From the IMG/VR virus record IMGVR_UViG_3300029219_000192: DNA of 7,860 nt, one strand, 5' to 3'. Both the position numbers and the translations under genes were made by a program. Positions 1 to 7,860 of the stretch are shown here, piece by piece (the first letter of the stretch is position 1; each line of letters starts with the position of its first letter). Origin of the DNA: a virus. Taxonomy: Duplodnaviria; Heunggongvirae; Uroviricota; Caudoviricetes. The notes under the pieces were generated by a model. That model did no database searches. It was not told the origin of the DNA and worked only from the letters and a program-made list of their open reading frames with translations.

Positions 1-77
1 TAAGCAGAGTTTTTGAAATGTAAGGCCTTTGAATAAGACAAAAGGCTGCCTCATCGCTAACTTTGCAACAGTGCCCT
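1..77. repeat. Left copy of a perfect 77-bp inverted repeat (partner at 7762-7838); may extend beyond the window edge
   Basis: Bases 1-77 are the exact reverse complement of 7762-7838, checked base by base; first mismatch is at 78 vs 7761. The copy runs to window position 1, so its outer limit is unknown. Confidence 0.95.
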
Positions 78-225
78 TTAAAGCACGTTTTAATCCAGGT
101 CGGCCTGTCCTTATTCCGCTTAATTTATCTTCAAATATTTGTTCACATCCTGCACAAACAAGAGCGTTTCGTTGCAGGTCTGTATTCTGGTCATTTGTTG
201 ATACCCTTACATAGCCAATCAGCAC
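76..225 (-). pseudogene. pin: Serine DNA invertase (Pin/Gin/Hin family), N-terminal 50-codon fragment fused to the inverted-repeat sequence
   Basis: Minus-strand translation from GTG at 223-225, verified codon by codon: MLIGYVRVSTNDQNTDLQRNALVCAGCEQIFEDKLSGIRTGRPGLKRALK. This matches the invertase N-terminus including the catalytic-serine motif VRVSTNDQ; GGGAG lies 7 nt upstream of the start. Homology stops at codon 50 (76-78), exactly at the repeat boundary; the frame then reads GTVAKLAMRQPFVLFKGLTFQKLCL with no stop before the window edge. The catalytic-domain remainder and C-terminal DNA-binding domain are absent. Confidence 0.85.
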
Positions 226-279
226 GCTGAATCTCCCGTCCAAAAGCACAAATCATGCCATGCAGGCCAGAAACCGCCA

Positions 280-305
280 TTATCTAAAACCTCGGTTTAC
301 AGGAA
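280..305. other. pix/gix-like 26-bp crossover site for a Gin-family invertase
   Basis: TTATCTAAAACC-TC-GGTTTACAGGAA at 280-305 fits the gix/hix-type site (two 12-bp inverted half-sites around a 2-bp core; consensus recalled from memory, about one mismatch). It lies between the pin fragment and the tail-fibre cassette, the expected position. No second convincing copy was found in the window. Confidence 0.7.
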
Positions 306-329
306 ACGGTAAACAGGGCCAGGAACGCC

Positions 330-1292
330 GTGCAAAAGAATGGCGATACCTTGTCCGGTGGGCTTACTTTTGAAAACGACTCAATCCTTGCCTGGATTAG
401 AAATACTGACTGGGCAAAGATTGGTTTTAAAAATAATGCCGACAGCGACACTGATTCATACATGTGGTTTGAAACAGGCGACAACGGCAATGAATATTTC
501 AAATGGAGAAGCCGCCAGAGCACCACAACAAAAGACCTGATGACTCTTAAATGGGATGCTTTGTCTGTCCTTGTTAAAGCCCTTTTCAGCAGTGAAGTAA
601 AAATATCGACAGTCAATGCACTGAGGATATTTAATTCATCTTTTGGTGCTATTTTTCGTCGTTCTGAAGAATGCCTGCATATCATCCCTACACGAGAGAA
701 TGAGGGAGAAAATGGTGATATAGGGCCACTACGCCCCTTTACGCTTAATCTCAGAACTGGTCGGATAAGCATGGGGCATGGTCTTGATGTTACAGGGGAT
801 ATATTTGCAAACCGTTTTGCAATTAACAGTAGTACCGGCATGTGGATTCATATGCGTGACCAGAATGTTATTTTGGGACGCAATGCGGTATCCACCGATG
901 GTGCGCAGGCATTACTTCGTCAGGACCACGCTGATCGCAAATTTATGATTGGTGGACTGGGGAATAAGCAATTTGGCATCTACATGATTAATAACTCAAG
1001 GACAGCCAATGGCACCGATGGTCAGGCGTACATGGACAACAATGGCAACTGGCTTTGCGGTGCGCAAGTTATTCCCGGCAATTATGGTAATTTTGACTCA
1101 CGTTATGTGAGAGATGTCCGACTTGGTACACGTGTTGTTCAGACTATGCAAAAAGGCGTGATGTATGAGAAATCAGGTCATGCAATTACGGGGCTTGGCA
1201 TTATCGGTGCAGTTGATGGCGATGATCCGGCAGTATTCAGACCAATACAAAAATACATCAATGGCACATGGTATAACGTCGTACAGGTGTAA
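330..1292 (+). CDS. Side tail fibre protein, C-terminal variable (receptor-binding) cassette; lacks the constant N-terminal part
   Basis: 320-aa ORF from a GTG. The N-terminal region (QKNGDTLSGGLTFENDSILAWIRNTDWAKIGFKNN...YMWFETGDNGNEYFKWR) is the conserved segment found just after the crossover site in Stf-type fibres. The frame is open from 288, just past a TAA at 285-287 inside the pin-proximal pix half-site. It is followed 3 nt later by tfa. No constant tail-fibre region lies upstream. Confidence 0.8.
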   Translation: MQKNGDTLSGGLTFENDSILAWIRNTDWAKIGFKNNADSDTDSYMWFETGDNGNEYFKWRSRQSTTTKDLMTLKWDALSVLVKALFSSEVKISTVNALRIFNSSFGAIFRRSEECLHIIPTRENEGENGDIGPLRPFTLNLRTGRISMGHGLDVTGDIFANRFAINSSTGMWIHMRDQNVILGRNAVSTDGAQALLRQDHADRKFMIGGLGNKQFGIYMINNSRTANGTDGQAYMDNNGNWLCGAQVIPGNYGNFDSRYVRDVRLGTRVVQTMQKGVMYEKSGHAITGLGIIGAVDGDDPAVFRPIQKYINGTWYNVVQV

Positions 1293-1295
1293 TTT

Positions 1296-1823
1296 ATGCA
1301 GCATTTAAAAAATATTAAGTCTGGAAATCCAAAAACAAAAGAACAATATCAGCTAACAAAGAATTTTGATGTTATCTGGTTATGGTCCGAAGACGGAAAA
1401 AACTGGTATGAGGAAGTGAAAAACTTTCAGCCAGACACAATAAAGATTGTTTACGATGCAAATAATATTATTGTCGCCATCACCAAAGATGCCTCCACGC
1501 TTAACCCTGAAGGTTATAGCGTCGTTGAGGTTCCAGATATTACAGCCAACCGCTGCGCTGATGATTCCAGTAAGTGGATGTTTAGGGACGGAGCTGTGGT
1601 TAAACGGATTTATACGGCAGACGAGCAACAACAACAGGCCGAATCACAAAAGGCCGCATTGCTTTCCGAAGCTGAATCAGTCATCCAACCGCTGGAACGC
1701 GCTGTCAGGCTGAATATGGCAACAGACGAGGAACGCACACGACTGGAAGCATGGGAACGCTACAGTGTTCTGGTCAGCCGTGTGGATACGGCAAATCCTG
1801 AATGGCCACAAAAACCAGAGTAA
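1296..1823 (+). CDS. tfa: Tail fibre assembly protein (lambda Tfa family)
   Basis: 175-aa ORF starting 3 nt after the tail-fibre stop. The C-terminal region ([34 protein letters not shown]) closely resembles the lambda Tfa C-terminus (EAW..Y.VL..RVDT...EWP). Confidence 0.85.
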
Positions 1824-1826
1824 AAA

Positions 1827-2258
1827 TTAAGGCCCGATACCGGGCAAAACATCCGTCAACAGTTCATCAATTTCTGTCGGGCCGAAGCCTGTCAGGGAGA
1901 CATCAAAATCAGCATTGATTAGGTCCGACAGCTCCATCCGCAACAGATCTTCATCCCAGCCAGCATTCATCGGTAGGCGATTATCTGCCAGGCGGTACGC
2001 CTTTTTCTGCTCATCCGTCAGGCCAGACAGAACAATGACCGGAACAGAATCCATTTTGAGCATTTCAGCCGCCATAACACGACCGTGACCCGCAATAATT
2101 TCGCCCTTTTCGTCAATCAGCACCGGATTAGTCCAGCCGAATTGCTTAATACTTTCTACCAGTTGTGCCACCTGCTCAGTACTGTGCGTCCTGGCGTTGT
2201 GCGCATACGGTGACAATTCTTGTAATGGGCGATAGACTATCTTTAATTTCTCGCTCAT
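1827..2258 (-). CDS. ParB-like nuclease-domain protein (ynaK-like by position next to trkG)
   Basis: 143-aa ORF with an AAGG RBS. The N-terminal region (PLQELSPYAHNARTHSTEQVAQLVESIKQFGWTNPVLI) resembles ParB/sulfiredoxin-type domains. It sits directly downstream of trkG, as ynaK does in the Rac prophage. Its stop codon is 3 nt from the convergent tfa stop. Confidence 0.6.
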   Translation of the reverse strand: MSEKLKIVYRPLQELSPYAHNARTHSTEQVAQLVESIKQFGWTNPVLIDEKGEIIAGHGRVMAAEMLKMDSVPVIVLSGLTDEQKKAYRLADNRLPMNAGWDEDLLRMELSDLINADFDVSLTGFGPTEIDELLTDVLPGIGP

Positions 2259-2395
2259 ACAGCCTTGCTTTATGAATAAAACGCACCCCAGCAGCCAGTG
2301 CTACTGGGGGCGGAGGTGTTGCTGGTAAAGTTAGGTATTGGATCAATGAGTGAGTCAATATAATATTAAACTCACAATTATAAATCAGCCATATA

Positions 2396-3853
2396 TTAGG
2401 AGCGCCAAAAAAAACCTGAAAACAATATAATAACAGGATAAATTTCAAGGCGACCAAGAATCATAGCTATGCACATTAAATATTTTGCAATGTCATTAAG
2501 CACTCCGAATGACGATGCAGTAGCCCCAAAACCTAATCCCATATTATTAATACATGCAGCCACTGTTGCAAATGATGTAAGAAAATCATATCCCATACCA
2601 TTTAACACCAGTATAAAAAACACCGTGAAGAGAGTATAAAGAAAAAAGAAACTCCATACAGACCTCATTACACGATCTGTAACTATCTTCCCTCCTACAT
2701 TTACACTCAACAACGCTCTGGGATGAGAAAGCTGATTTATCTCGTGTTTGCTTTGTTTGAAAAGTATAAGAAATCGAAGTGACTTAATTCCACCACAAGT
2801 TGAACCTATACATCCCCCAAAGAAACTTGACGACAGCAAAAACACTATCGTGTGCGTGGGCCAGTTTGCATAATCCTGCGTAGCTAAACCATTATCAGTG
2901 AGCATGGAGCTGGCAAGAAAAAACGAATGAATAAAACTTCCATGCAAGTCATACATACCTATATGCCAGACCTGGAAAGAGGTAACAATGATCACCCCTA
3001 AGGCTATTAACAGAAAGAAACGAAGTTCAATATCTCTGATTAAAGGTTTTATCGTTTTCCTGCTAATAACAATATACCAAAGAGTGAAGTTGAAAGCCGA
3101 TAGCAGGGAAAAAGAACCAGCCACCAGCTCAACCAAATAGTTATTAAAATATCCGATACTCTCGCTATGAGTTGAGAAACCACCAAGCGAAACTGTGGAA
3201 ATCCCGTGACAAATAGCATCAAACAAAGGCATTCCTGCAAGTCTATAACAGACAATACAAGCAATACCTAATAAAGAATAAGTTATCCACAGTGTCCGTG
3301 ACGTATCGGCCAGGCGGGGAGTGAGTTTGTCATCCTTAAATGGCCCCGGCATTTCTGACTGATAAAGCTTTGTACCACCAATACCCAATAATGGCAATAC
3401 AGCAACCGCCAGAACAATAACTCCTAAACCACCTATAAAATTTAACTGTGACCGATAGTACAAATATGCCCGAGGTAATGAACTAACATCATCAATTACA
3501 GTTGCTCCTGTTGTTGTTATTCCAGAAACCCCTTCAAACAGAGCATCAATGAACGTTAAATTAAGTTCTGAGTCAATCCATAAAGGGAATGCACTAATAA
3601 CAGAAAACAAAATCCAAAACATTACAATTATAATAAACCCATCACGGGTACGTAATTGAATGCCAGATTTCTTAGTTGTATACCACGCTCCGCCACCAAT
3701 GCAAAAAAATATAACGAAAGTTATAAAGAAAACGAACAGGCTTTTTTCTTTATAAAACAATGCTACAACCATTGGTGGCAACATTGAAAGACTATAGAGC
3801 CAAACCAGGAACCCACACATATGAGTAACAACTCTTACATGAGATGTATTCAT
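2396..3853 (-). CDS. trkG: Trk-system potassium uptake protein, TrkH/TrkG family membrane subunit (prophage-borne)
   Basis: Long, very hydrophobic ORF with repeated glycine-rich pore-loop-like segments (ITTTGATV, FIGGLGVIVL, STVSLGGFSTH, FGGCIGSTCGGIK). It is strikingly AT-rich compared with its neighbours and lies beside Rz/Rz1, as in Rac. The start is taken as the ATG at 3851-3853 (MNTSHVRV..., 485 aa); the ORF-track start at 3871 is a TTG. Confidence 0.85.
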   Translation of the reverse strand: MNTSHVRVVTHMCGFLVWLYSLSMLPPMVVALFYKEKSLFVFFITFVIFFCIGGGAWYTTKKSGIQLRTRDGFIIIVMFWILFSVISAFPLWIDSELNLTFIDALFEGVSGITTTGATVIDDVSSLPRAYLYYRSQLNFIGGLGVIVLAVAVLPLLGIGGTKLYQSEMPGPFKDDKLTPRLADTSRTLWITYSLLGIACIVCYRLAGMPLFDAICHGISTVSLGGFSTHSESIGYFNNYLVELVAGSFSLLSAFNFTLWYIVISRKTIKPLIRDIELRFFLLIALGVIIVTSFQVWHIGMYDLHGSFIHSFFLASSMLTDNGLATQDYANWPTHTIVFLLSSSFFGGCIGSTCGGIKSLRFLILFKQSKHEINQLSHPRALLSVNVGGKIVTDRVMRSVWSFFFLYTLFTVFFILVLNGMGYDFLTSFATVAACINNMGLGFGATASSFGVLNDIAKYLMCIAMILGRLEIYPVIILFSGFFWRS

Positions 3854-3990
3854 ATCTAAATATTCTTTCAATTATAACCACCTTGCTGCAATATTATGAT
3901 TATACTGTATAAAATTTAACTCCTCTTAGATCTTACTTCACTGTTCCTTATGAAACAATCATCAAAATGAATCATATTGTAGTTAAGATT

Positions 3991-4455
3991 TTACTTTAAA
4001 CACTGCTCGGTTATGTATTGCTGAGCACCTTCAAGTTGGGCCTGCATCATTACCAGTCGTTCCCGGAGGGTGAAATAATCCCGTTCAGCGGTGTCTGCCA
4101 GTCGGGGGGAGGCTGCATTATCCACGCCGGAGGCGGTGGTGGCTTCACGCACTGACTGACAGACTGCTTTGATGTGCAACCGACGACGACCAGCGGCAAC
4201 ATCATCACGCAGAGCATCATTTTCAGCTTTCGCATCAGCTAACTCCTTCGTGTATTTTGCATCGAGCGCAGCAACATCACGCTGACGCATCTGCATGTCA
4301 GTAATTGCCGCGTTCGCCAGCTTCAGTTCTCTGGCATTTTTGTCGCGCTGGGCTTTGTAGGTAATGGCGTTATCACGGTAATGATTAACAGCCCATGACA
4401 GGCAGACGATGATGCAGATAACCAGAGCGGAGATAATCGCGGTTACCCTGCTCAT
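3991..4455 (-). CDS. Rz: Rz i-spanin (inner-membrane lysis protein)
   Basis: Near-identical to lambda Rz along its length ([68 protein letters not shown]...). The start is taken as the ATG at 4453-4455, which overlaps the upstream endolysin-remnant stop as ATGA; the track start at 4467 is a GTG. Confidence 0.9.
4050..4235 (-). CDS. Rz1: Rz1 o-spanin (outer-membrane lipoprotein), embedded in Rz in the +1 frame
   Basis: 61-aa ORF wholly inside Rz. It has a lipoprotein signal with lipobox LVVVGC and a proline-rich region ([24 protein letters not shown]), matching lambda Rz1. Confidence 0.85.
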
Positions 4456-4676
4456 TGTTGCCCCCACAAACAGACCTCACGCTCAATCTCACGACGAGTC
4501 ATCAGGCCTTTCCATTGCTTACCGCCAGCGTATGCCCAGCGACGTAGCTGGTCACATGCGCCCTTGATATCGCCCTGGTTTATTTTGCGAAGAAGAGTAG
4601 ATGTTCTGAAATTGCCTGCGCCCACGTTATAGACGAACGAGTAAAGAGCGCCGCGCGTTGTTTCCGGTAGGTGCGA
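4452..4676 (-). pseudogene. Phage endolysin (lysozyme, R21/RrrD-like) 3' remnant: about the last 70 codons only
   Basis: Minus-strand frame ending at the TGA that overlaps the Rz start: ...[71 protein letters not shown]. This matches the C-terminus of lambdoid lysozymes (from memory). The frame is closed upstream by a TGA (plus 4677-4679) with no start codon; the N-terminal catalytic part and the holin gene are absent. Confidence 0.6.
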
Positions 4677-4794
4677 TCACTTTCGTCTACTCCGTTACAA
4701 AGCGAGGCTGGGTATTTCCCGGCCTTTCTGTTATCAGAAATCCCCTGAAAGCACAGCGGCTGGCTGAGGAGATAAATAATAAACGGGGGGCTGT

Positions 4795-4986
4795 ATGCAC
4801 AAAGCATCTCCTGTTGAGTTAAGAACGTGTATCGAGATGGCACATAGCCTCGCTCAAATTGGAGTCAGGTTTGTGCCAATACCAGTAGAAACAGACGAAG
4901 AATTTCATACGTTAGCCGCATCCCTTTCACAAAAGCTGGAAATGATGGTGGCGAAAGCAGAAGCAGATGAGAGAGACCAGGTATGA
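4795..4986 (+). CDS. Small early-region protein, YdfA-like (63 aa)
   Basis: ATG ORF with a G-rich RBS, MHKASPVELRTCIEMAHSLAQIGVRFVPIPVETDEEFHTLAASLSQKLEMMVAKAEADERDQV. Its stop overlaps the next start as ATGA. It resembles, from memory, the first gene of the ydfA-ydfB-ydfC trio of the Qin prophage. Confidence 0.5.
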   Translation: MHKASPVELRTCIEMAHSLAQIGVRFVPIPVETDEEFHTLAASLSQKLEMMVAKAEADERDQV

Positions 4987-5066
4987 CAACCACTGAATGC
5001 ATTTTTCTGGCAGCGGGCTTCATATTCTGTGTGCTTATGCTTGCCGACATGGGGCTTGTTCAATGA
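4983..5066 (+). CDS. Small hydrophobic peptide, YdfB-like (27 aa)
   Basis: MTTTECIFLAAGFIFCVLMLADMGLVQ, a single predicted transmembrane helix. ATGA overlaps with both neighbours suggest translational coupling. The alternative reading is that the next gene starts at 4997 in another frame (93-aa track ORF). Confidence 0.35.
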   Translation: MTTTECIFLAAGFIFCVLMLADMGLVQ

Positions 5067-5278
5067 CACCTCAGCAAGAAAACGCCCTTCGCAGCATTGC
5101 CCGTCAGGCTAATTCTGAAATCAAAAAAGCCAGACAGCAGTTTCCGGATAAAAACGTCGATGACATTTGCCGTAGCGTACTGAAGAAGCACCGCGAAACG
5201 GTAACGCTGATGGGATTCACACCGACTCATTTAAGCCTGGCAATCGGCATGTTAAACGGCGTCTTTAAGGAACGATGA
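5063..5278 (+). CDS. Small early-region protein, YdfC-like (71 aa)
   Basis: MTPQQENALRSIARQANSEIKKARQQFPDKNVDDICRSVLKKHRETVTLMGFTPTHLSLAIGMLNGVFKER. The start overlaps the upstream stop as ATGA. Same frame as the 93-aa track ORF (4997-5278), but the coupled start at 5063 is preferred. Confidence 0.5.
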   Translation: MTPQQENALRSIARQANSEIKKARQQFPDKNVDDICRSVLKKHRETVTLMGFTPTHLSLAIGMLNGVFKER

Positions 5279-5299
5279 ACATGAAAAGCAAAATTATCA

Positions 5300-5324
5300 G
5301 GGAGCTACAGGCTCCTTTTTTATT
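5300..5324 (+). terminator. Short GC hairpin plus T-tract (weak intrinsic terminator or small-RNA 3' end)
   Basis: GGAGC (5301-5305) pairs with GCTCC (5311-5315) around a 5-nt loop, followed by TTTTTTATT. The stem is only 5 bp, so confidence is low. Confidence 0.25.
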
Positions 5325-5376
5325 GCTCGCATTTACCCCCAAGCGTATTAACCAACAATTCAGGGATTAATGGAAG

Positions 5377-5598
5377 ATGGCAGACATCATTGATTCAGCA
5401 TCAGAAATTGAAGAATTACAGCGCAACACAGCAATAAAAATGCGCCGCCTGAACCACCAGGCTGTATCTGCCACTCATTGTTGTGAGTGTGGCGATCCCA
5501 TAGATGAGCTAAGACGCCTGGCCGTTCAGGGTTGTCGGACTTGTGCAAGTTGCCAGGAAGATCTGGAGCTTATCAGTAAACAGAGAGGTTCGAAGTGA
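5377..5598 (+). CDS. DksA/TraR-family C4-type zinc-finger protein (phage TraR-like)
   Basis: 73-aa ORF with four-cysteine motif ...HCCECGDPIDELRRLAVQGCRTCASCQ... Size and motif are typical of TraR-like proteins in lambdoid early regions. Confidence 0.8.
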   Translation: MADIIDSASEIEELQRNTAIKMRRLNHQAVSATHCCECGDPIDELRRLAVQGCRTCASCQEDLELISKQRGSK

Positions 5599-5846
5599 GC
5601 GTAATTCACTCTCAGGCACTGCGTGAAGCGGCAGAGCAGGCAATGCCTGACAACTGGGGATTTGACGCGGACCTTTTCCATGAGCTGGTAACACCATCGA
5701 TTGTGCTGACACTGCTGGATGAACGGGAAAGAAACCAGCAATACATCAAACGCCGCGACCAGGAGAACGAGGATATTGCGCTAACGGTGGGGAAACTGCG
5801 TGTTGAGCTGGAGACAGCAAAAATCAAAACTCAACGAGCAGCGTGA
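5595..5846 (+). CDS. Ead/Ea22-like early protein, N-terminal part; ORF closed by TGA but coding-like frame continues to 6008
   Basis: GTG start overlapping the TraR-like stop (GTGA). MSVIHSQALREAAEQAMPDNWGFDADLFHELVTPSIVLTLLDERERNQQYIKRRDQENEDIALTVGKLRVELETAKIKTQRAA resembles Ea22-family N-termini (from memory). After the TGA at 5844-5846 the same frame stays open for 53 more codons. Confidence 0.45.
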   Translation: MSVIHSQALREAAEQAMPDNWGFDADLFHELVTPSIVLTLLDERERNQQYIKRRDQENEDIALTVGKLRVELETAKIKTQRAA

Positions 5847-6144
5847 GTAGAAGGTGTTATCTCGGATGGAAGTAAGCGTATTGCTGAACTGGAGGCCTGG
5901 GTTGAATACACAAGAGCTGCATACGTAAGAGCAAAAGACAAGGGAGATTTGATCAGAGTTATTACCCGCCAACCAACGGGATTTTACGCTTACGTACCAT
6001 GTAATTAGGAATCCTTGAAGTGGCAGCCTAACTGCGGATACACTGAAATGGCGATTTGGTAACATGTTTCGCACAAGGCTGTTACTACACTTAGAGATAA
6101 TCAGCCATGATTAAACGCTTTGTAAAAAGTAAAAGGAAATTACA

Positions 6145-6759
6145 ATGAAAAAATCAATACTAATTTTAGGGCTTACGTTAATTGTCTCATCTCAAATACC
6201 ATCGGCAATGGCAAAAAATGAATCAAAACTATGGGTTGTTGTTGATCGAACGGAAAGACATACCTGCCCTTCAAGTAAATGTGGAGTGGCTGGGAAACTA
6301 TTTTTCAGGGAAGGCGTAGATTTTCTAGAAAAAAAAGGTGAATGGGTTCGTATAACTGAGCCATATTCAGCCTCATGTGTTGGAGGGGAAAGCGAATATA
6401 TTAAAGAAGGTAATAAATCCTGCACAAGAAAAAATGGAATCGTTAATGGCAAGTTTTCAGAATGGGTTAAACTTAGTGATCTTAGCAGTGAAAGGCCATC
6501 AGATCCTGCTGAAAATGCGAGCGGAGATGATACTTTAATCAAAGGATCTGATGACTACCGTATATACAAAAAAGAGTTTTCTTCGGCAGCTAGGAAGTTA
6601 ATAAATGAAGGGGTCTGCACGGAAAGCGATTTTAAGGAAATCGGAGGGTGGATGGCATCAAGCAATAAGGGTGAAAACATCTATTTCACATATTGCGGAG
6701 GAATGACGTTGTCGAACAGAATATACCTAGATGTTAAAAGTGGAAAGACTTTTAGATAA
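6145..6759 (+). CDS. Secreted (Sec signal peptide) cysteine-containing protein of unknown function; AT-rich cargo gene
   Basis: 204-aa ORF with an AAGGAA RBS. N-terminal MKKSILILGLTLIVSSQIPSAMA-KNE is a typical signal peptide with an AxA cleavage site and no lipobox. Several Cys lie in the mature part. Composition is visibly AT-rich compared with flanking genes, and a strong terminator follows. Confidence 0.7.
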   Translation: MKKSILILGLTLIVSSQIPSAMAKNESKLWVVVDRTERHTCPSSKCGVAGKLFFREGVDFLEKKGEWVRITEPYSASCVGGESEYIKEGNKSCTRKNGIVNGKFSEWVKLSDLSSERPSDPAENASGDDTLIKGSDDYRIYKKEFSSAARKLINEGVCTESDFKEIGGWMASSNKGENIYFTYCGGMTLSNRIYLDVKSGKTFR

Positions 6760-6829
6760 TATGATATTACCAATGACAGTATTGATTTAATGCCTCCATA
6801 GAATTATCTCTAGGAAGTAGGTATAAGAA

Positions 6830-6866
6830 AAGCCCGCACAATGAGCTGCTGCGGGCTTTGTGTTAT
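6830..6866 (+). terminator. Rho-independent terminator downstream of the secreted-protein gene
   Basis: AAGCCCGCA (6830-6838) pairs with TGCGGGCTT (6850-6858) around an 11-nt loop, followed by TTTGTGTTATT. Confidence 0.7.
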
Positions 6867-6912
6867 TCGCCATATTTTATGAAGCAAATACGACACTATA
6901 GATAATTAAGCG

Positions 6913-7052
6913 TTGCTGGTTGTCGATTCCTCAATCACTCCTGTTGATGGCTCTCTTCTTGTATGTGCCATTGAAGGGGAATATCGCGTAAAAAGATACC
7001 GGAAGTATCCGCGCCGCCATGATTGTCTTTCTCCTGATGCAGGAAAAGCAGA
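6913..7052 (+). pseudogene. S24 peptidase (LexA/UmuD/cI-type) C-terminal-domain remnant
   Basis: LVVDSSITPVDGSLLVCAIEGEYRVKRY resembles the conserved core of the S24 autoproteolytic domain (compare UmuD LLIVDSAIT...VIAAVDGEFTVKKL). There is a stop codon 6 nt upstream of 6913, no catalytic-Ser region, and the downstream translation is not protein-like. The homologous core is roughly 6913-7000. Confidence 0.4.
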
Positions 7053-7391
7053 ATGGCTAAATCAGCAACAGAGCACAAAGCCGATCAGAGAGCCAAGCAA
7101 GCATCATCCGGTATGCGTAAGCTGGAGCTTGTACTTGATGCTCAGGAAATTGAAATGCTGGAGCGTAACTGTGCCACGCGTCGCTTCAGGCGTGCGCCTT
7201 GCGAGTTTGGTGAGTACATCGCGTTACTGAGCCGCCAGGATGATGCACGTGTGCGCTGGCGTATAAAATCGATCAGCAGAAAACGGTGCGGTAAGTGCGG
7301 CGAGAGAGTTCCTGTTAATTCATGCCCGTGTAATGGTGACTCACAATGCTGGGTGACCAAAGGCTGGCACGAAACAAAATTAATGATATAA
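7053..7391 (+). CDS. Hypothetical protein with C-terminal Cys cluster (putative zinc ribbon)
   Basis: 112-aa ATG ORF with an AGGA RBS. C-terminal C-x2-C-x8-C-x-C-x5-C (RCGKCGERVPVNSCPCNGDSQCW). No family recognised. Confidence 0.6.
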   Translation: MAKSATEHKADQRAKQASSGMRKLELVLDAQEIEMLERNCATRRFRRAPCEFGEYIALLSRQDDARVRWRIKSISRKRCGKCGERVPVNSCPCNGDSQCWVTKGWHETKLMI

Positions 7392-7397
7392 ATCTCT

Positions 7398-7409
7398 GTG
7401 ACATGTCAC
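7398..7409. promoter_or_regulatory. Perfect 12-bp palindrome GTGACATGTCAC between the two module genes (candidate protein-binding site)
   Basis: Exact dyad symmetry at 7398-7409, in the 28-bp gap immediately upstream of the RBS (GGAGG) of the 7420 gene. Confidence 0.3.
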
Positions 7410-7419
7410 GGAGGCGGCA

Positions 7420-7782
7420 ATGAAATTAGACCAGCAATATCTAAAAGATCTACTTATCGCATTCGAAAAAACTCGTGGCCCTGACACGATGCTTAGTGAA
7501 CTAGAGGATAATGGCTTTAATAGATATGACCAAGATTTTATTTTCCATATGCGATTATTATGTGACTACGAATTAATAGTCAGGGTTGATGGAAAACCTG
7601 GGTTCGGTCATATATTGTCCAAAGCGTTAGGGGAAGGTGTTGGATATAGTTGGATCGAAGTACCACTGAGGTTGACAGCAAGAGGGCATGATTTTATTGC
7701 TGACTTACGTCAAAAGGATGTCTGGCAAGCTATAAAAACAAACTTTAAGGATGAGGGAATTAGGGCACTGTTGCAAAGTTAG
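7420..7782 (+). CDS. Hypothetical protein (120 aa), AT-rich; its last 6 codons lie inside the right inverted repeat
   Basis: ATG ORF with a GGAGG RBS 7 nt upstream. Protein-like composition, no recognised motif. Visibly AT-rich. It ends ...EGIRALLQS* with the stop at 7780-7782. Confidence 0.65.
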   Translation: MKLDQQYLKDLLIAFEKTRGPDTMLSELEDNGFNRYDQDFIFHMRLLCDYELIVRVDGKPGFGHILSKALGEGVGYSWIEVPLRLTARGHDFIADLRQKDVWQAIKTNFKDEGIRALLQS

Positions 7783-7838
7783 CGATGAGGCAGCCTTTTG
7801 TCTTATTCAAAGGCCTTACATTTCAAAAACTCTGCTTA
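7762..7838. repeat. Right copy of the perfect 77-bp inverted repeat
   Basis: Exact reverse complement of 1-77. Covers the last 6 codons and stop of the 7420-7782 ORF plus 56 bp downstream. Confidence 0.95.
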
Positions 7839-7860
7839 CCAGGCGCATTTCGCCCAGGGG

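What the first reader, a model, noticed from the sequence alone, without database searches (positions are those of the whole stretch)
1..7838. Perfect 77-bp inverted repeat brackets the whole segment and coincides with the pin truncation point
Bases 1-77 are the exact reverse complement of 7762-7838. The right copy is the natural 3' end of the 120-aa gene plus downstream DNA. The left copy begins exactly where homology to Pin invertase stops (codon 50), so the pin fragment is fused in frame to inverted tail sequence of the 120-aa gene. Perfect identity over 77 bp (possibly more beyond the window) implies a recent duplication or deletion joining two copies of a pin-associated locus. It also creates a substrate for homologous-recombination inversion of the entire 7.7-kb block.
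Basis: seen in the sequence. Interest (0 to 1): 0.7.

Follow-up and report, generated by a model that had tools for sequence, protein, structure and literature searches.

The report
Two inverted IS26 copies flanking prophage remnant
The perfect 77-bp inverted repeat is simply the ends of two oppositely oriented copies of the very common insertion sequence IS26, which have cut out and now bracket a 7.7-kb piece of a decayed E. coli prophage on an Enterobacter-type plasmid, an ordinary and well-understood arrangement.

Summary
The repeat is real: 1-77 is the exact reverse complement of 7762-7838. It is not a duplicated piece of a pin locus. Bases 1-75 are the last 75 nt of the 820-bp insertion sequence IS26, comprising the tnp26 stop codon and the 14-bp terminal repeat. 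Bases 7764-7860 are the reverse complement of the last 97 nt of IS26. Two further flank bases pair by chance, which gives 77.

The arms are cut short only by the window ends. A 151-kb contig has complete 820-bp IS26 copies at both junctions.

The enclosed 76-7763 is a fragment of a defective lambdoid prophage found at the bioA-ybhB/ybhC site of E. coli chromosomes. One IS26 cuts an already decayed 64-codon pin remnant after codon 50. The other cuts a DUF2513 gene that is natively 142 aa, so the "120-aa gene" is a chimera whose last six codons and stop are IS26 sequence.

The left junction is shared with E. coli chromosomes and Enterobacter mcr-10 plasmids. The right junction is private to an Enterobacter asburiae-associated lineage.

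One relative has 76-2360 inverted, with an extra IS26 and an inverted 8-bp target duplication. That is the classic mark of IS26 intramolecular replicative transposition.

Verdict: known element, ordinary architecture, low interest.

The parts
1..75 (+). Right end of IS26 copy 1: the last 7 codons plus stop of tnp26 at 1-23, and the 14-bp terminal inverted repeat IRR TTTGCAACAGTGCC at 62-75. Cut by the window start.
   Evidence: Identical to the last 75 nt of the complete 820-bp IS26 of L001 (3256-4075, Tnp WP_001067855.1).
76..225 (-). pin (serine invertase) remnant, codons 1-50, running on into IS26.
   Evidence: Pfam Resolvase E 5.8e-12. Annotated as a partial recombinase in L001. The native remnant is 64 codons in L003.
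280..305 (-). Single orphan Din-family (gix/pix-like) crossover site, TTCCTGTAAACCGAGGTTTTAGATAA.
   Evidence: One match with 1 mismatch, none in 200 shuffles, and no second site in the window. The consensus was taken from memory.
291..1292 (+). C-terminal (variable) part of a tail fibre gene, lacking its N-terminus.
   Evidence: RefSeq annotation 'phage tail protein, missing N-terminus'. Pfam Gp34_trimer.
1296..1823 (+). Tail fibre assembly protein.
   Evidence: Pfam Caudo_TAP E 4.8e-37. Annotation.
1827..2258 (-). ParB/Srx N-terminal domain protein (ynaK-like).
   Evidence: Pfam ParB_N. Annotation.
2353..2360 (.). 8-bp site AGTCAATA used as the IS26 target in relative L006, where 76-2360 is inverted.
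   Evidence: Window 1-2360 and 2353-7860 map to L006 with an 8-bp overlap. The IS26 flanks are TATTGACT / AGTCAATA.
2396..3853 (-). trkG, potassium transporter.
   Evidence: Pfam TrkH E 8.7e-144. Annotation WP_001393986.1.
3991..4455 (-). Rz-type lysis protein, with the nested Rz1 ORF at 4050-4235.
   Evidence: Pfam Phage_lysis E 3.5e-53. Rz1 family PF06085 on the nested ORF in L006.
4452..4670 (-). Lysozyme (rrrD) fragment.
   Evidence: RefSeq annotation, missing N-terminus.
4658..7391 (+). Lambdoid early-region small genes: DUF1317, DUF1382, a hypothetical, TraR/DksA (5377-5598), frameshifted Ead/Ea22 (5643-5894), a 204-aa secreted hypothetical (6145-6759), a DNA-repair gene fragment (6913-7020) and a 112-aa hypothetical (7053-7391).
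   Evidence: Annotations. Pfam families.
7420..7782 (+). Chimeric 120-aa ORF. Codons 1-114 plus 2 nt of the native 142-aa DUF2513 gene occupy 7420-7763. The end of codon 115, five more codons and the stop come from the IS26 terminal repeat (7764-7782).
   Evidence: Alignment with native WP_000762732.1. Pfam DUF2513.
7764..7860 (-). Right end of IS26 copy 2, in the opposite orientation, with IRR GGCACTGTTGCAAA at 7764-7777. Cut by the window end.
   Evidence: Reverse complement of the last 97 nt of the 820-bp IS26. A complete copy sits at this junction in L006, 10345-11164.

Best explanation
The inverted repeat is made by two copies of insertion sequence IS26 in opposite orientation. Each presents its right end (IRR, the end downstream of tnp26) to the enclosed DNA. 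75 bp of each arm is IS26 and 2 bp is fortuitous complementarity of the flanks. The arms look short only because the window, like the short-read contigs it resembles, stops inside the repeated element. On a long contig both are complete 820-bp IS26 copies.

The enclosed 7,688 bp (76-7763) is a piece of a decayed lambdoid prophage whose native home is the bioA-ybhB/ybhC (lambda attachment) region of E. coli chromosomes. One IS26 abuts codon 50 of an already defective pin gene. The other interrupts a DUF2513 gene in codon 115. That creates two chimeric ORFs that read on into IS26.

Shown here: the identity of the arms with IS26, the exact junctions, the native uninterrupted locus, and the occurrence of the same junctions with full IS26 copies in other assemblies.

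Inferred: the fragment was carried onto IncF-type plasmids (mcr-10 plasmids of Enterobacter and others) and trimmed by IS26 cointegrate formation, IS26-mediated adjacent deletion and recombination between IS26 copies. Because the copies are inverted, the structure should not move as an IS26 pseudo-compound transposon or translocatable unit. It can be flipped by homologous recombination between the copies. Either IS26 can also rearrange the block further by intramolecular replicative transposition, as one relative demonstrates.
For: - Arms: window 1-75 equals the last 75 nt, and window 7764-7860 equals the reverse complement of the last 97 nt, of a complete 820-bp IS26 with 14-bp terminal repeats GGCACTGTTGCAAA and the annotated IS26 transposase WP_001067855.1. 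IS26 is 820 bp with 14-bp TIRs and 8-bp target duplications (PMC4471558; PMC7986276).
- Copy number: the terminal stretch alone matches 5,982 E. coli records and at least 5,000 plasmids, always annotated as IS26.
- Native locus: L003 (E. coli E2) has 76-7763 uninterrupted (7,691 nt aligned, 1 mismatch) between bioA-ybhB and ybhC. It has a 64-codon pin remnant and a 142-aa DUF2513 gene followed by xis and int.
- Left junction: the identical junction occurs in the chromosomes of AH04, AH02, CT01 and S43, and in pMCR10_SCLZS19.
- Right junction: the exact 120-aa chimera is indexed in 45 blocks of public assemblies and is named from Enterobacter asburiae. L007 contains the whole window at 100% identity, and L008 matches window 1-7852.
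- L006 (151-kb contig): complete IS26 copies at both junctions, 819/820 identical to each other. A third copy, identical to the first, has inverted 76-2360, with the 8-bp target AGTCAATA/TATTGACT duplicated in inverted orientation. [quoted passage not shown]
Against: - The window holds only 75 and 97 nt of IS26 and no outer flanks, so completeness of the two copies in the source molecule is inferred from relatives.
- No direct 8-bp target duplications flank any of the IS26 copies examined. Reciprocal junctions were not found. How and in what order the two copies arrived is therefore not reconstructed.
- The right junction is absent from the curated E. coli, plasmid, GTDB-representative and JGI collections.
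- No direct evidence shows that the whole block flips in any population.
Confidence: 0.96

Rival explanations
1. One reading: a recent segmental duplication or deletion joined two copies of a pin-associated locus. The right arm would be native gene sequence and the left arm an inverted copy of it fused to pin.
For: Perfect identity over 77 bp, and coincidence of the left arm with the end of pin homology.
Against: The native DUF2513 gene is 142 aa and diverges from the window exactly where the IS26 terminal repeat starts. Both arms are identical to the end of IS26. The native locus contains neither arm.
Confidence: 0.01
2. Assembly artefact: the repeat or the junctions are produced by collapsed or mis-joined contig ends.
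For: The window is almost co-extensive with short-read contigs that break inside IS26 at both ends: L008 at 7,866 nt and L007 at 8,103 nt. The arm lengths of 75 and 97 nt therefore reflect where a contig or window stops, not biology.
Against: Both junctions fall on the exact terminal base of IS26. They recur at 100% identity in independent isolate and metagenome assemblies from NCBI, ENA and Logan. On the 151-kb contig L006 they are embedded between complete IS26 copies. The left junction is also present in finished chromosomes and plasmids.
Confidence: 0.02
3. The repeat marks the boundaries of a Pin-type (Din family) site-specific invertible segment.
For: A pin remnant, tail fibre and tail fibre assembly genes, and one gix/pix-like crossover site are present.
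Against: The invertase keeps only 50 codons. Only one crossover site exists, at 280-305, and it is not within either arm. The arms are IS26.
Confidence: 0.01
4. The inverted pair was created in one step, by intramolecular replicative transposition in trans of a single IS26. That event would simultaneously have inverted the block.
For: This mechanism generates inverted IS26 pairs. It demonstrably acted on this very block in L006.
Against: The ancestral flanks deduced from L006 are: left copy CTGCGTAG / CTTTAAAG, right copy GGAATTAG / AATCATAG. They show no reverse-complementary 8-bp pair, and neither do those of pMCR10_SCLZS19. The two copies differ at one base, whereas the demonstrably copied pair is identical. 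Later events could have erased the signature.
Confidence: 0.1

Closest known systems
IS26 (IS6 family) and IS26-driven plasmid reorganisation (He et al. 2015, PMC4471558; Varani et al. 2021, PMC7986276)
   Same: The arms are sequence-identical to the IS26 right end, including the 14-bp terminal repeat. The copies lack direct target duplications, as is typical. A relative shows the inverted 8-bp duplication and inverted extra copy that are diagnostic of intramolecular transposition in trans.
   Different: The cargo carries no resistance gene. It is a fragment of a defective prophage: pin', tail fibre genes, trkG, lysis genes and early-region ORFs.
IS26 pseudo-compound transposons and translocatable units (e.g. 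Tn4352, Tn2680)
   Same: A DNA segment bounded on both sides by IS26.
   Different: Those have directly oriented IS26 copies, which is what allows resolution or excision as a unit (PMC7986276). Here the copies are inverted, so the structure is not expected to move that way.
Din-family invertible tail-fibre segments (Mu G/Gin, P1 C/Cin, e14 P/Pin); compared from my own knowledge
   Same: An invertase gene next to a crossover site, followed by a variable tail-fibre C-terminus and a tail fibre assembly gene. One such half-segment survives at 76-1823.
   Different: The invertase is truncated, only one crossover site is left, and the 77-bp repeat has nothing to do with those sites.
Rac-type defective prophage of E. 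coli K-12 (rzpR-rzoR-trkG-ynaK ... stfR-tfaR-pinR); compared from my own knowledge
   Same: Same gene set: Rz/Rz1, trkG, ynaK-like ParB_N, tail fibre, tail fibre assembly and pin.
   Different: The native copy here sits at the bioA/ybhC (lambda att) site, with a lambda-like int-xis and early region. It is far more deleted, and in the window it is excised from that context by IS26.

Membership tests
IS26 (IS6 family insertion sequence) | 14-bp terminal inverted repeat GGCACTGTTGCAAA at the element tip | tested here: met
   Present at 62-75 (as the reverse complement) and at 7764-7777, exactly at the points where homology to the native prophage stops. The 14-bp TIR is stated in PMC4471558.
IS26 (IS6 family insertion sequence) | 820-bp element encoding the 234-aa Tnp26 transposase | tested here: met
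   The window holds only 75 and 97 nt, both 100% identical to the end of a complete 820-bp IS26 encoding WP_001067855.1. Complete copies occupy the same junctions in L001, L004 and L006. Completeness in the window's own source molecule is inferred.
IS26 (IS6 family insertion sequence) | 8-bp target-site duplication | tested here: inconclusive
   Outer flanks are not in the window. In relatives the flanks are not direct duplicates, which is common for IS26 (PMC4471558). The third copy in L006 does carry an 8-bp duplication, in inverted orientation.
IS26 pseudo-compound transposon / translocatable unit | Bounding IS26 copies in direct orientation | tested here: not met
   Both copies present their right (IRR) end to the block, so they are inverted relative to each other. 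The direct orientation requirement is stated in PMC7986276.
Din-family (Pin/Gin/Cin/Hin) invertible segment | Intact serine invertase gene | tested here: not met
   Only 50 codons remain, covering Resolvase profile positions 2-57 of 145. Even the native copy stops at codon 64.
Din-family (Pin/Gin/Cin/Hin) invertible segment | Two inverted 26-bp crossover sites bounding the segment | tested here: not met
   A single site lies at 280-305 and no other is found with up to 3 mismatches. Neither arm of the 77-bp repeat contains one.
Compound transposon with inverted IS copies that moves as a unit (Tn5/Tn10 style) | Transposase acts on the two outer IS ends to move the whole structure | not testable with these tools
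   No outer flanks or target duplications are available for the whole structure. According to PMC7986276, IS6-family transposition goes through cointegrates, and with inverted copies it would stall at that stage.

The most novel reading that the evidence does not exclude
The IS26-bounded prophage remnant may be more than junk cargo. It could be maintained on conjugative IncF/mcr-10-type plasmids across Escherichia, Enterobacter, Klebsiella and Citrobacter because something in it is selected: trkG potassium uptake, or the uncharacterised secreted 204-aa protein. The inverted IS26 pair could then act as a recombination-driven flip-flop, so that both orientations coexist in populations with different expression of the cargo.
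Probability: 0.07. Interest if true: 0.3.

Novelty: already known. Interest (0 to 1): 0.08.

Why it matters
It matters mainly as a correction. A striking perfect inverted repeat that seemed to indicate a new rearrangement of a pin locus is the signature of IS26, the most common insertion sequence on enterobacterial resistance plasmids. The '120-aa gene' and the '50-codon pin' are IS26 truncation products.

There are modest side points:
- The case documents capture of a chromosomal E. coli prophage remnant, including trkG, onto conjugative plasmids that also carry mcr-10.
- It gives a clean example of IS26 intramolecular inversion, with an inverted 8-bp duplication and an identical daughter copy.
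- It shows that windows cut from short-read contigs will often end in matching IS fragments.

Tried and rejected
- Right junction: I searched for it (DUF2513'/IS26) in complete E. coli genomes, PLSDB plasmids, GTDB representative genomes and JGI metagenome contigs. There was no record with the junction. It was found only through the exact-protein index.
- Reciprocal junctions: I searched for those expected from simple IS26 insertions with 8-bp duplications, namely IRL-GGAATTAG-native DUF2513 3' part and native pin-CTTTAAAG-IRL. None were found.
- One-step inversion: I tested whether the 8-bp flanks of the IS26 pair fit a one-step intramolecular inversion, in the L006-derived ancestor and in pMCR10_SCLZS19. 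They do not.
- Right outer flank: I tried to place the right outer flank of L006 by similarity to plasmids. Only a common malT/IS1 plasmid region came up, with nothing that links it to pMCR10_SCLZS19.
- Outward hybrid promoters at the IS26 ends: none passed the consensus scan at either junction.
- Rfam and tRNA scans of the window found nothing.
- A literature search for this block (trkG + IS26 + plasmid) found no description.
- Pin-type invertible segment and segmental duplication readings were considered and rejected, as listed under rival explanations.


Full report
**Observation.** The repeat finder confirms arms 1-77 and 7762-7838, 77 nt, 100% complementary, 7,684 nt apart. All other inverted repeats in the window are 14-24 nt and mostly imperfect, so the repeat is far beyond chance. 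The 50 codons on the minus strand at 76-225 are the N-terminus of a serine invertase: Pfam Resolvase, profile positions 2-57 of 145, E 5.8e-12. Pin homology does therefore end at the repeat.

**What the arms are.** A megablast of the window against complete E. coli genomes gave matches in 11,066 records and 65,715 places. More than half of these are on plasmids, a copy number that only a mobile element gives. Several best hits listed 'IS6-like element IS26 family transposase' under the match.

From locus L001 (E. coli AH04) I extracted the complete element: 820 bp, bounded by GGCACTGTTGCAAA and its reverse complement, encoding WP_001067855.1. Window 1-75 is identical to its last 75 nt. Window 7764-7860 is identical to the reverse complement of its last 97 nt. 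These values match the published description of IS26: 820 bp, 14-bp terminal repeats, 8-bp target duplication (PMC4471558; PMC7986276).

- Both arms are the right end of IS26, comprising the tnp26 stop codon at 21-23 and IRR at 62-75 and 7764-7777. The two copies are inverted, each with IRR facing inward.
- The innermost 2 bp of each arm (76-77 ct, 7762-7763 ag) belong to the enclosed DNA and are complementary by chance.
- The 22 nt beyond the right arm are still IS26, so the left arm is cut only by the window start.

**What is enclosed.** E. coli E2 (L003) carries 76-7763 uninterrupted (7,691 nt aligned, one mismatch) inside a defective lambdoid prophage between bioA-ybhB and ybhC. The gene order is:

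- tfa' fragment, then a 64-codon pin remnant
- tail-fibre C-terminal fragment, then the tail fibre assembly gene
- ParB_N (ynaK-like), trkG, Rz/Rz1, and a lysozyme fragment
- DUF1317, DUF1382, TraR/DksA, Ead/Ea22 and hypotheticals
- DUF2513 (142 aa), xis and int

The native pin was therefore already dead, and IS26 removed a further 14 codons. The native DUF2513 protein reads ...KDEGISTLMSVSKSLAKGFARKKIKEITGIDIE. The window's version reads ...KDEGIRALLQS*, and the divergence begins in codon 115, exactly at 7763/7764. The '120-aa gene' is thus an IS26 truncation chimera, not a natural gene end. On the minus strand pin' also reads on into IS26, but in another frame.

**Where the junctions occur.** The left junction (IS26 IRR / CTTTAAAG at window 76) is present in the chromosomes of E. 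coli AH04, AH02, CT01 and S43, and in Enterobacter kobei pMCR10_SCLZS19. In that plasmid an ISEc68 has additionally inserted at 90-93. Fourteen plasmids from Escherichia, Enterobacter, Klebsiella and Citrobacter carry at least 80% of the block. Several have IS26 at other positions in the pin remnant (115/116, 158/159) and in the other orientation.

The right junction is absent from the curated collections. However, the exact 120-aa chimera is indexed in 45 blocks of public assemblies and is named from Enterobacter asburiae (WP_248236202.1). L007, a MEGAHIT metagenome contig of 8,103 nt, contains the whole window at 100% identity. L008, a 7,866-nt contig of GCA_023152575.1, matches window 1-7852. 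Both contigs stop inside IS26 at both ends. The window therefore behaves like a short-read contig delimited by a collapsed repeat. The arm lengths are technical, but the junctions are real.

**A relative that shows the mechanism at work.** L006 is a 20,363-nt locus fetched from a 151,595-nt contig of GCA_040537855.1. It has complete IS26 copies at both junctions, 819/820 identical to each other, plus a third copy. Window 1-2360 maps inverted and window 2353-7860 maps direct, overlapping by 8 bp. The IS26 flanks are TATTGACT and AGTCAATA, which are reverse complements. The extra copy is identical to the left copy.

This is exactly the product of intramolecular replicative transposition in trans described for IS26. 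Working the flanks backwards gives a unique ancestor: HxlR-tautomerase flank - CTGCGTAG - IS26(+) - 76...7763 - IS26(-) - AATCATAG. That is the window's arrangement.

The 1,830 nt comprising that outer flank plus IS26 are 100% identical to the right-hand flank of pMCR10_SCLZS19. There, however, that IS26 abuts the int' end of the block rather than the pin' end. So relative to a shared plasmid flank the block occurs in both orientations in related plasmids. This is what recombination between the inverted IS26 copies would produce. Other IS26 routes are possible, though, and the other outer flanks differ (GCTCACGC expected, AATCATAG observed). At least one further event is therefore needed.

**Origin of the pair.** No IS26 examined has a direct 8-bp duplication, and the flanks of the pair do not show the reverse-complement signature of a one-step inversion. 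Reciprocal junctions were not found. I therefore infer, but cannot show, a multi-step history of cointegrate formation, adjacent deletions and IS26-IS26 recombination, as is usual for this element.

**Comparison with known systems.**
- The arms are IS26 by sequence, so membership is met.
- The whole structure is not an IS26 pseudo-compound transposon or translocatable unit, because these require direct orientation.
- It is not a Pin-type invertible segment. Only one gix/pix-like site is present (280-305), the invertase is truncated, and the arms contain no such site.
- What remains at 76-1823 is half of a former invertible tail-fibre segment: pin', crossover site, variable fibre end and assembly gene.

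**Other checks.** There were no Rfam families, no tRNAs and no promoter-like sites at the junctions. The literature search found no description of this particular block.

**Verdict.** The interpretation of its origin is wrong. The feature is two inverted copies of a well-known insertion sequence bracketing a prophage remnant on a plasmid. The prediction that the repeat is longer than 77 bp and could support inversion is reasonable and has indirect comparative support. Novelty: already known. Interest: low.

Noticed in passing
window 280-305 (- strand): A single gix/pix-like 26-bp crossover site (TTCCTGTAAACCGAGGTTTTAGATAA) lies between the start of the pin remnant and the tail-fibre C-terminal ORF. 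Together with the tail fibre assembly gene, this is the surviving half of a former Pin-invertible tail-fibre segment. There is no partner site in the window.
   Followed up: partly
window 76-160; L002 4820/4821; L005 3820/3821; hit H43: At least three different IS26 junctions fall within about 85 bp of the pin remnant in different records: 75/76 with IRR inward, and 115/116 and 158/159 with the other IS26 orientation. This suggests repeated IS26 targeting or stepwise IS26-mediated deletion into this end of the block.
   Followed up: partly
L006 1009-4933 (window 76-2360 inverted; target at window 2353-2360): A clean example of IS26 intramolecular replicative transposition in trans. The extra IS26 copy is identical to the donor copy, and the 8-bp target AGTCAATA is duplicated in inverted orientation.
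   Followed up: yes
L004 3094-4290 (window 90-93): In pMCR10_SCLZS19 an IS5-family ISEc68 has inserted into the pin remnant, 15-18 bp from the IS26 junction. Window positions 90-93 are present on both sides of it.
   Followed up: partly
window 6145-6759 and 7053-7391 (+ strand): A 204-aa protein with an N-terminal signal-peptide-like sequence and a 112-aa cysteine-rich protein have no Pfam family. They are conserved at 100% identity in all copies of the block seen.
   Followed up: no
L001, L002, L016 downstream of int (e.g. L001 13568-15769): In the AH04 chromosome and in several plasmids the prophage int is followed by Dps-ArsR-FAD oxidoreductase genes instead of ybhC. These copies of the prophage remnant therefore sit in a context different from the lambda att site. 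AH04 may carry integrated plasmid DNA.
   Followed up: no
L003 3824-4150: In the native chromosome the pin remnant stops at codon 64 and is followed directly by a tail-fibre-assembly gene fragment on the same strand. An older deletion therefore preceded the IS26 insertion.
   Followed up: partly
L007 and L006 IS26 copies (IS26 positions 522, 568, 614, 685): IS26 copies in these loci differ at a few positions. In L007 the two arms stop matching 137 nt out from the inner edge, and the next base corresponds to the variable IS26 position 685. This suggests short-read contigs break at IS26 variant sites.
   Followed up: partly
window 1827-2258 (- strand): The same ParB_N (ynaK-like) sequence is annotated as a complete 143-aa protein in one RefSeq record (L003). 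In others (L001, L002) it is annotated as a truncated pseudogene. This is an annotation inconsistency, not a sequence difference.
   Followed up: no
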